Source: a phage. From it: a DNA stretch of 64,000 nucleotides. The stretch lies in the sequence record OZ335959.1; one strand, 5' to 3'. Positions 62,900-63,679 of the stretch are shown one piece after another. Numbering within the stretch: the first letter of the stretch is position 1; each line of letters opens with the position of its first letter. The notes under the pieces were generated by a model. The model saw only the letters and a list, made by a program, of their open reading frames with translations, made no database searches and was not told the DNA's origin. The translations under genes were made by a program, and so were the position numbers.

Positions 62900-63679
62900 A
62901 TGGCAGTAACAGGACCGTGGGTAGGATCGTCTGCAGTAGTTAATACAGGACAAAATTGGATGGGCGGCGCGGCCCAACGATTAAGAATGGGTGCTCCATT
63001 TTGGATGAGTAATATGATAGGTCGATCTGTTGAAGTAATTCATACACTTGGAGCAGACCATAACTTCAATGGTCAATGGTTCCGAGATAGATGTTTTGAG
63101 GCAGGTAGTGCACCTATAGTGTTTAATATTACTGGAGATTTAGTATCATATTCTAGAGATGTTCCTTTATTCTTCATGTACGGAGATACACCTAATGAAT
63201 ACGTTCAACTGAACATACACGGCGTAACGATGTATGGTCGTGGTGGGAATGGTTGGGCCGCTGGTGCAATTGGAGCATCTGATGGCGGTGTATGTATCCA
63301 GAATGATATAGGTGGACGTCTGCGAATTAATAATGGCGGAGCTATTGCCGGTGGCGGCGGTGGCGGCGGTGGTTATTCACAAGCCAACAACTGGGCGGGA
63401 AAATATGTTTGTGGTGGTGGCGGCGGTCGTCCATTCGGCTTAGGCGGAAATAATGGTGCTCGATGGCCTGGTGGTAATGCTAGTTTGACGTCTCCGGGTG
63501 CTGGCGGTAATACTGGTACAGGGTATTATGCAGGTGGCGGTGGTGAAGTTGGTCAGCCAGGACAATATGCTAATCCAGGTGCTGGTTATTCAACACCTCC
63601 GACAAGTCCTGGTGCTGCTGTAGCAGGATCAGCTCCAACATGGCAGAATGTTGGAGCAATATATGGTTCAAGAGTATAA
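62900..63679 (+). CDS. 38: Tail fibre adhesin (T2-type gp38) with glycine-rich motifs, about 259 aa
   Basis: Poly-Gly motifs GGGGGGGGY and CGGGGGRP separated by variable segments; ATG after GGAGG RBS; the track start is TTG. Confidence 0.85.
63346..63440 (+). repeat. Simple GGY-codon (poly-glycine) repeats within gene 38
   Basis: Runs such as ggtggcggcggtggcggcggtgg. Confidence 0.7.

What the first reader, a model, noticed from the sequence alone, without database searches (positions are those of the whole stretch)
62900..63679. T2-type gp38 adhesin with glycine-rich motifs in an otherwise T4-like backbone
The ORF after gene 37 is not the T4-type gp38 assembly chaperone (recalled at about 183 aa). 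It is a roughly 259-aa protein with poly-glycine motifs separated by variable segments, the architecture of T2/T6-type receptor-binding adhesins. The GGY codon runs are slippage-prone. Host range is therefore probably set by this protein.
Basis: partly seen in the sequence, partly recalled or inferred. Interest (0 to 1): 0.45.

Follow-up and report, generated by a model that had tools for sequence, protein, structure and literature searches.

The report
Known PP01/AR1-type gp38 tail-fibre adhesin
The gene after tail-fibre gene 37 is an ordinary, already well-studied T2-type gp38 receptor-binding protein whose receptor-binding part is virtually identical to that of the E. coli O157 phage PP01, which has a crystal structure and binds the porin OmpC.

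Summary
Window 62900..63679 (+) is a 259-aa ORF behind a GGAGG ribosome-binding site. It is 24% glycine, with G8, G5 and G4 runs. It matches Pfam GP38 (E 5e-72) and Gp38_N (E 2e-21), and has no detectable similarity to the 183-aa T4 gp38 chaperone. Residues 37-259 are 222/223 identical to the solved PP01 gp38 receptor-binding domain (PDB 9V85). All five receptor loops, and every residue shown experimentally to matter for OmpC(O157) binding, are unchanged. The whole protein is 99% identical to gp38 of phages AR1 and Sfk20, and the exact sequence already exists in public assemblies.

Two caveats apply. The non-T4 block is 3.9 kb and includes most of gene 37, which is T2/S16-type with a C-terminal self-cleaving chaperone domain. 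It is not gene 38 alone. This arrangement is also the commonest one among T4-like phages, so it is not a surprise.

The slippage idea has little support. The only repeat is a 9-nt unit x 2.7 copies, and about 20 close alleles keep G8, with one G7 exception.

Verdict: real, correctly interpreted, already known, low interest.

The parts
59557..62868 (+). Gene 37, long-tail-fibre distal subunit (1103 aa), T2/S16 type. Only the first ~63 codons keep DNA similarity to T4.
   Evidence: ORF. 34% aa identity to T4 gp37 over aa 1-680 only, and 87-93% to PP01/AR1/Sfk20 gp37. T4 DNA similarity stops at 59743.
62533..62865 (+). C-terminal intramolecular chaperone domain of gp37 (aa 993-1103, begins SDIRVKKD). 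Inferred to be auto-cleaved after trimer folding, exposing the tip that carries gp38.
   Evidence: Pfam Peptidase_S74 at aa 993-1052, E 2e-12. The last 190 aa match S16 gp37 in PDB 6F45_A, E 3e-43. Cleavage itself is inferred, not tested.
62873..62888 (+). C(UUCG)G tetraloop hairpin AGGGGCUUCGGCCCCU in the 37-38 intergenic spacer.
   Evidence: Fold -17.8 kcal/mol, z -2.55. A hairpin is present at the same junction in T4, T2, PP01, AR1 and Sfk20.
62890..62894 (+). Shine-Dalgarno GGAGG of gene 38.
   Evidence: Read from the sequence; 5 nt upstream of ATG 62900.
62900..63679 (+). Gene 38: T2-type receptor-recognising adhesin, PP01/AR1 subtype, 259 aa plus stop.
62900..63019 (+). gp38 N-terminal attachment domain (aa 1-40), which docks on the gp37 trimer tip.
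   Evidence: Pfam Gp38_N PF21721, E 2e-21. This part is AR1/Sfk20-like and differs from PP01 at 9 positions.
63020..63235 (+). gp38 conserved beta-helix region (aa 41-112).
   Evidence: Identical to PP01. Domain named from the 9V85 structure description (PMC12892980).
63236..63676 (+). gp38 specificity domain (aa 113-259): polyglycine-II sandwich with five protruding receptor loops.
   Evidence: 222/223 identical to PDB 9V85 over aa 37-259.
63254..63271 (+). Receptor loop A (W119-I124).
   Evidence: Loop limits from PMC12892980; identical to PP01; entropy 2.0 bits.
63350..63373 (+). G8 run (aa 151-158): GGT GGC GGC GGT GGC GGC GGT GGT, a 9-nt unit x 2.7 copies.
   Evidence: Its length is 5-9 across the family. 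It is G7 in Shigella phage sb1 and G8 in all other close alleles.
63380..63409 (+). Receptor loop B (Q161-V170), including K168 and Y169.
63413..63427 (+). G5 run (aa 172-176) of the invariant GGGGGRPFG motif.
63449..63466 (+). Receptor loop C (N184-W189).
63509..63526 (+). Receptor loop D (N204-Y209), including G208 and Y209.
63572..63592 (+). Receptor loop E (N225-S231), including A228 and Y230. This is the main specificity loop in PP01.
63710..64000 (+). Start of holin gene t (runs off the window). T4-like backbone resumes here.
   Evidence: Pfam Phage_holin_T, E 1e-43. 97% aa identity to T4. DNA is 97.5% identical to T4 from 63685.

Best explanation
Gene 38 encodes the monomeric receptor-binding adhesin that caps the long tail fibre. 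Shown here by sequence: the protein has the two GP38 family domains. Its residues 37-259 differ from the crystallised PP01 gp38 receptor-binding domain only by N236S. Its partner gp37 has the S16/T2-type tip followed by a Peptidase_S74 intramolecular chaperone. Inferred from the published S16 and PP01 work: gp37 folds as a trimer with the help of its own C-terminal chaperone domain, which is then cut off at about Ser993. The gp38 N-terminal domain (aa 1-40) binds the exposed tip. The conserved glycine motifs pack as polyglycine-II helices into a rigid sandwich, and this sandwich presents five hypervariable loops. Loop E (N225-S231, with A228 at its tip), supported by loops B and D, inserts into the cleft between extracellular loops 5 and 7 of OmpC of the O157 type. 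This gives the reversible first step of adsorption and so sets the primary host range (E. coli O157:H7 and probably Shigella strains). The gene 37-38 pair is a 3.9-kb exchangeable cassette inside an otherwise T4-collinear Tequatrovirus genome.
For: Pfam GP38 E 5e-72 (aa 45-259) and Gp38_N E 2e-21 (aa 1-40). PHROG 2056 E 3e-109. PDB 9V85 E 7e-143 with 222/223 identity, and S16 gp38 6F45_D E 4e-53 over the full length. Loops A-E, and Y159, K168, Y169, G208, Y209, A228 and Y230, are all identical to PP01; their roles are described in PMC12892980. The protein is 99% identical to AR1 and Sfk20 gp38. The DNA is 95-99% identical in 41 phage records, mostly isolated on E. coli O157:H7 or Shigella. gp37 has a Peptidase_S74 domain and matches 6F45_A at E 3e-43. 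Synteny is 34-35-36-37-38-t, as in PP01, AR1, T2 and T4. The T4-similarity break is at 59744-63684. The conserved-motif and hypervariable-loop pattern holds across 112 representatives.
Against: Nothing here contradicts it, but nothing functional was measured for this allele. The N236S change (also present in AR1, sb1, EC121 and NBEco003) and the AR1-like N-terminal domain are untested. Near-identical adhesins occur in phages isolated on Shigella and on non-O157 E. coli, so 'O157-specific' may be too narrow. Actual host range also depends on the short tail fibres and on post-adsorption barriers.
Confidence: 0.9

Rival explanations
1. It is an adhesin of the same family but for a different receptor (FadL/OmpF as in T2, Tsx as in T6, OmpA as in K3/Ox2).
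For: The family as a whole uses many outer-membrane proteins, and single loop substitutions can shift specificity (PMC3157838, PMC12032242). One residue (236) differs from PP01.
Against: All five receptor loops are identical to PP01, whose OmpC contacts were mapped by cross-linking and mutagenesis. Identity to T2 gp38 is only 48% and to T6 about 60%, with unrelated loops. Residue 236 lies outside the defined loops, and S236 is shared with AR1.
Confidence: 0.06
2. It acts as a T4-type assembly chaperone for gp37 and is not part of the virion.
For: It has the same gene name and the same position between genes 37 and t as T4 gene 38.
Against: There is no sequence similarity to T4 gp38 (E = 17), and the two fall in different PHROG families. 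gp37 carries its own chaperone domain. S16 gp38 was crystallised bound to the gp37 tip (6F45). T6 gene-38 amber phages have normal morphology but do not adsorb (PMC3157838).
Confidence: 0.01
3. The glycine-codon runs form a slippage-prone contingency locus that generates adhesin length variants at high frequency.
For: The G8 run is encoded by a 9-nt unit x 2.7 copies. The run is 5-9 Gly long across the family. Shigella phage sb1, 97% identical in DNA, has G7.
Against: There is no homopolymer longer than 4 nt and no triplet repeated more than 3 times, and the codons are mixed GGT/GGC/GGA. About 20 close alleles all keep G8/G5/G4 apart from sb1. Their length differences lie in the N-terminal domain and loop D. 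Experimental evolution of PP01 gave only point substitutions in loops (PMC6027323). Deleting Gly-rich motifs in T6 was not viable (PMC3157838). Observed mosaics, such as loop A of Ec_YwIITB1 and the three N-terminal domain types, fit recombination at conserved motifs instead.
Confidence: 0.05

Closest known systems
gp38 of Escherichia phage PP01 (PDB 9V85; BBC14589.1)
   Same: 259 aa, the same locus, and 96% identity overall. Residues 41-259 are identical except N236S, including loops A-E and every residue tested for OmpC(O157) binding.
   Different: Nine substitutions in the N-terminal attachment domain (aa 4-32) and N236S. The partner gp37 is 87% identical and 6 aa shorter.
gp38 of Escherichia phage AR1 (BAI83267.1; AF208841) and Shigella phage Sfk20 (QPP47032.1)
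   Same: 99% aa and 97.6-98.8% nt identity, with the same N-terminal domain type. The gene order, the intergenic hairpin and the spacers are identical.
   Different: AR1 differs by G22V, G208R and S257P. Sfk20 differs by A32I, A228S and S236N. gp37 is 90% identical in AR1 and 93% in Sfk20, and is patchy.
gp38 of Salmonella phage S16 (PDB 6F45_D), the structural archetype
   Same: Alignable over the full length (E 4e-53), with the same Gly-rich motifs. The gp37 C-terminus is also homologous (E 3e-43).
   Different: The loops differ and the protein is 10 aa shorter. Its receptor is Salmonella OmpC (PMC12892980).
gp38 of phages T2 and T6
   Same: Same family and architecture. The last ~70 nt of the gene and the holin flank keep DNA similarity to T2.
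   Different: Only 48% (T2) and about 60% (T6) aa identity, with different hypervariable loops and a different N-terminal domain type. T2 gp37 is 1341 aa against 1103.
T4 gp38 (NP_049864.1), tail-fibre assembly chaperone
   Same: Gene name and map position only.
   Different: 183 aa, no detectable similarity, and PHROG 105 rather than 2056. T4 gp37 has a Collar/needle tip and no Peptidase_S74 domain.

Membership tests
T2-type gp38 adhesin (Pfam GP38 PF05268 + Gp38_N PF21721) | Significant full-length match to the family profiles, above the curated cut-offs. | tested here: met
   GP38 242.7 bits (cut-off 25) over aa 45-259 covering profile 1-218/218. Gp38_N 76.3 bits (cut-off 25) over aa 1-40. 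PHROG 2056 E 3e-109.
T2-type gp38 adhesin (Pfam GP38 PF05268 + Gp38_N PF21721) | Conserved glycine-rich motifs alternating with hypervariable segments in the C-terminal half. | tested here: met
   In 113 aligned sequences, the motifs have entropy 0.24-0.41 bits and loops A-E have 2.0-2.7 bits.
T2-type gp38 adhesin (Pfam GP38 PF05268 + Gp38_N PF21721) | Polyglycine-II sandwich fold. | tested here: met
   Not modelled here. Inferred from 222/223 identity to the crystal structure 9V85 and a full-length alignment to 6F45_D; the fold is described in PMC12892980.
T2-type gp38 adhesin (Pfam GP38 PF05268 + Gp38_N PF21721) | Encoded directly downstream of a gene 37 whose product ends in an intramolecular chaperone domain and an S16/T2-type tip. 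| tested here: met
   Gene order is 37-38-t. Peptidase_S74 lies at gp37 aa 993-1052. 6F45_A match at E 3e-43.
T2-type gp38 adhesin (Pfam GP38 PF05268 + Gp38_N PF21721) | Present in the virion at the fibre tip and required for adsorption. | not testable with these tools
   Known for T2, T6, S16 and PP01 (PMC3157838, PMC12892980). It needs virion proteomics and gene-38 mutants of this phage.
PP01/AR1 OmpC-binding subtype | Receptor loops A-E and the functionally mapped residues identical to PP01. | tested here: met
   All columns 41-259 are identical except 236. Y159, K168, Y169, G208, Y209, A228 and Y230 are kept.
PP01/AR1 OmpC-binding subtype | Adsorption depends on OmpC carrying the loop-7 GVIN insertion. 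| not testable with these tools
   Requires adsorption or plating assays.
T4-type gp38 tail-fibre assembly chaperone | Sequence similarity to T4 gp38 / PHROG 105, at about 183 aa. | tested here: not met
   BLASTP E = 17 and no hit at 1e-3. PHROG 105 is hit by T4 gp38 but not by the window protein. Length is 259 aa against 183.
Slippage-type contingency repeat | A long, uninterrupted short-unit tandem repeat whose copy number varies among near-identical alleles. | tested here: inconclusive
   The longest repeat is a 9-nt unit x 2.7; homopolymers are at most 4 nt and triplets at most x3. One of about 20 close alleles (sb1) has G7 instead of G8.

The most novel reading that the evidence does not exclude
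The 24-nt GGT/GGC 9-mer repeat that encodes the G8 polyglycine helix undergoes in-frame slippage often enough to produce G7/G8/G9 subpopulations. These would change the geometry of the loop B platform and so act as a built-in host-range switch. The G7 allele of Shigella phage sb1 would be one such variant caught in nature.
Probability: 0.04. Interest if true: 0.35.

Novelty: already known. Interest (0 to 1): 0.08.

Why it matters
It matters only in a practical way. The gene predicts the phage's primary receptor (OmpC of the O157 type) and its likely hosts (E. coli O157:H7 and Shigella) directly from sequence. It also marks the exchangeable 37-38 cassette that one would swap or mutate to retarget the phage. 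It opens no new biological question, because the family, its architecture, its structure and the receptor contacts of an almost identical protein are all published.

Tried and rejected
The tests below either gave nothing or were judged unnecessary.

- T4-chaperone reading: BLASTP against T4 gp38, plus Pfam and PHROG scans of both proteins, showed no relationship.
- Slippage: I ran Tandem Repeats Finder and a unit-repeat count. I compared Gly-run lengths in 112 family representatives, in 8 near-identical phage and database alleles, and in 13 members of the protein's own 90% cluster. The only variation among close alleles is one G7 allele.
- Non-coding RNA: an Rfam gathering scan and a tRNA scan of the whole window found nothing.
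- Promoters and terminators: the sigma-70 and terminator consensus scan around the gene gave nothing above shuffle expectation. The only 'terminator-like' hit is the minus-strand reading of the UUCG hairpin.
- Structure prediction and fold search: not run, because a crystal structure with 99.5% identity exists.
- Insert between genes 18 and 19: the 218-aa ORF has no Pfam family at E <= 0.01 and matches only a PHROG of unknown function.

Full report
**Observation.** The ORF exists as described. ATG 62900 to TAA 63679 on the + strand encodes 259 aa. The mechanical ORF list begins at an upstream TTG (62888). The ATG is the better start: it lies 5 nt after GGAGG (62890-62894) and is the annotated start in PP01, AR1 and Sfk20.

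Glycine makes up 62 of 259 residues, and 49 of the last 147. There are runs of G8 (aa 151-158), G5 (172-176) and G4 (212-215). The gene's G+C is 47.8%, against 36.5% for the window.

I aligned the protein with 112 cluster representatives. The Gly-rich motifs are nearly invariant (0.24-0.41 bits of column entropy). The five segments between them are hypervariable (2.0-2.7 bits). The pattern is therefore a family property, not a chance feature.

**Identity.** The protein matches Pfam GP38 (PF05268, E 5e-72, aa 45-259, whole profile) and Gp38_N (PF21721, E 2e-21, aa 1-40). It also matches PHROG 2056, 'tail fiber protein; host specificity', at E 3e-109.

- Against solved structures, residues 37-259 are 222/223 identical to the PP01 gp38 receptor-binding domain (9V85, E 7e-143). 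The full length aligns with S16 gp38 (6F45_D, E 4e-53).
- At the DNA level, 361 phage records match and 41 are at least 95% identical. The best are AR1 (98.8%), ECp13, UFV-AREG1, pSs-1, HY01 and Sfk20. Most were isolated on E. coli O157:H7 or Shigella.
- At the protein level it is 99% identical to AR1 and Sfk20 gp38, 96% to PP01, and 48% to T2.
- The exact sequence is already present in public assemblies (Logan/ENA, 3 contigs), in a 92-member 90% cluster.

**Not the T4 type.** It shows no similarity: BLASTP gives E = 17 and there is no hit at 1e-3. It belongs to PHROG 105, 'tail fiber assembly', which the window protein does not hit.

**Context.** The window is collinear with T4 positions 96,672-160,511. 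T4 covers 87% of it at 84-97% nt identity. The largest block without T4 similarity is 59744-63684 (3941 nt), apart from an 86-nt match at 80% identity inside gene 37 (61069-61154). This block is gene 37 from about codon 63 onward, plus gene 38.

- gp34, gp35, gp36 and the holin are 93%, 95%, 80% and 97% identical to T4.
- gp37 is only 34% identical to T4, and only over its first 680 residues.
- The gp37 C-terminus carries a Peptidase_S74 intramolecular chaperone domain (aa 993-1052, starting SDIRVKKD). It matches the S16 gp37 fragment of 6F45 at E 3e-43.
- T4 gp37 instead has Collar and Phage_fiber domains.

So the swapped unit is the whole distal-fibre cassette, not gene 38 alone. Trojet et al. 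state that this gp38 adhesin is the predominant form among T4-type phages and that T4 is the exception (PMC3157838). A 'T2-type gp38 in a T4-like backbone' is therefore the normal condition.

**Mechanism.** What is shown here is sequence identity with proteins whose mechanism is published. According to PMC12892980:
- Its receptor-binding domain is a beta-helix plus a polyglycine-II sandwich.
- Five loops protrude from the sandwich: A (W119-I124), B (Q161-V170), C (N184-W189), D (N204-Y209) and E (N225-S231).
- G208 cross-links to OmpC(O157) loop 5, and Y230 cross-links to loop 7.
- A228 at the tip of loop E needs to be hydrophobic.
- Y209 and Y159 hold loop E in place.
- K168 and Y169 may touch LPS.
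- The GVIN insertion in OmpC loop 7 is the key host determinant.

Every one of these residues, and all five loops, are identical in the window protein. The only difference in residues 41-259 is N236S, which lies outside the loops and is shared with AR1, sb1, EC121 and NBEco003.

I infer that this protein binds OmpC of the O157 type and sets the first, reversible adsorption step. That AR1 also uses OmpC is my own recollection (Yu et al. 2000, J Bacteriol) and was not checked here. Auto-cleavage of gp37 at about residue 993 is inferred from the domain family and from S16/T2.

**Modularity.** The N-terminal attachment domain of the window protein is AR1/Sfk20-like and differs from PP01 at nine positions. 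In public proteins, the same PP01-type specificity domain is joined to at least three N-terminal domain types. One close allele, Ec_YwIITB1, has loop A replaced by the M1/T6-type sequence found in P0043, P0068 and P0012. PMC12892980 reports that PP01 gp38 does not work on T2 gp37 unless its first 113 residues are replaced by those of T2. All of this fits the published picture of exchange at conserved motifs.

**Slippage claim.** The G8 run is GGT GGC GGC GGT GGC GGC GGT GGT, a 9-nt unit x 2.7 copies. There is no homopolymer longer than 4 nt and no triplet repeated more than three times.

- Across the family the first run is 5-9 Gly long and the second is fixed at 5.
- Among about 20 alleles at least 90% identical, all keep G8/G5/G4 except Shigella phage sb1, which has G7. 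The other length differences lie in the N-terminal domain and loop D.
- Experimental evolution of PP01 produced only point substitutions in loops (PMC6027323).
- Deletions of Gly-rich motifs in T6 were not recovered (PMC3157838).

Slippage cannot be excluded, but it is not indicated as a significant mechanism.

**Verdict.** The finding is real and correctly interpreted, with two refinements: gene 37 belongs to the cassette, and the subtype is PP01/AR1 rather than T2/T6. The slippage aside is unsupported. The protein is already known down to its crystal structure and receptor contacts, so interest is low.

Noticed in passing
window 62873-62888: A C(UUCG)G tetraloop hairpin (AGGGGCUUCGGCCCCU; -17.8 kcal/mol, z -2.55) sits between the gene 37 stop and the gene 38 ribosome-binding site. 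A hairpin of this kind is kept at the same junction in T4, T2, PP01, AR1 and Sfk20, although the flanking coding sequences are unrelated between T4 and the others. The window holds nine perfect N4-CTTCGG-N4 hairpins (at 3853, 10519, 17153 and 62874 on +; at 34889, 34010, 30273, 28097 and 13476 on -). Such hairpins are a known feature of T4 intercistronic regions (my recollection: Tuerk et al. 1988).
   Followed up: partly
window 3845-4501 (+): A 218-aa ORF is inserted between genes 18 and 19, where T4 has only a short spacer. There is no T4 DNA similarity and no Pfam family. It matches PHROG 5104 of unknown function (E 7e-90). By eye it carries an HNH-like C-terminal motif, so it may be a free-standing homing endonuclease.
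   Followed up: partly
window 10514-10573, 15629-15647, 43693-43694, 44360-44414, 47544-47545, 51534-51568 (junctions): Compared with T4, the window lacks segD, segE, the nrdB intron with I-TevIII, mobE, the td intron with I-TevI, and segG. The flanking genes join directly (against the T4 annotation).
   Followed up: partly
window 26067-28124 (-) and 28128-30224 (-): There are two full-length tandem Alt-like ADP-ribosyltransferase genes (685 and 698 aa, both Pfam ADPrib_exo_Tox). T4 has one alt gene plus the remnants alt.-1 and alt.-2, which are annotated as an old partial duplication.
   Followed up: partly
window 59557-62868 (gene 37): gp37 is a patchwork relative to its closest relatives. 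In 50-aa bins, identity to Sfk20, AR1 or PP01 drops to 52-72% at aa 301-350, 401-450 and 451-500, while neighbouring bins are 94-100%. Different relatives are closest in different bins. A 21-nt x 2 tandem repeat lies at 62801-62841 in the coiled-coil end of the chaperone domain.
   Followed up: no
window 63680-63709: The 38-t spacer reads GAATAAATA where T4 has the late-promoter consensus TATAAATA. T2, PP01 and Sfk20 share the window's version.
   Followed up: no
window 26087-27440, 28986-29414, 37666-38184, 39824-40136, 48897-49412: These are further segments of 300-1350 nt with no blastn match to the corresponding T4 region. I examined only the alt-region segments (26087-27440 and 28986-29414).
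   Followed up: no
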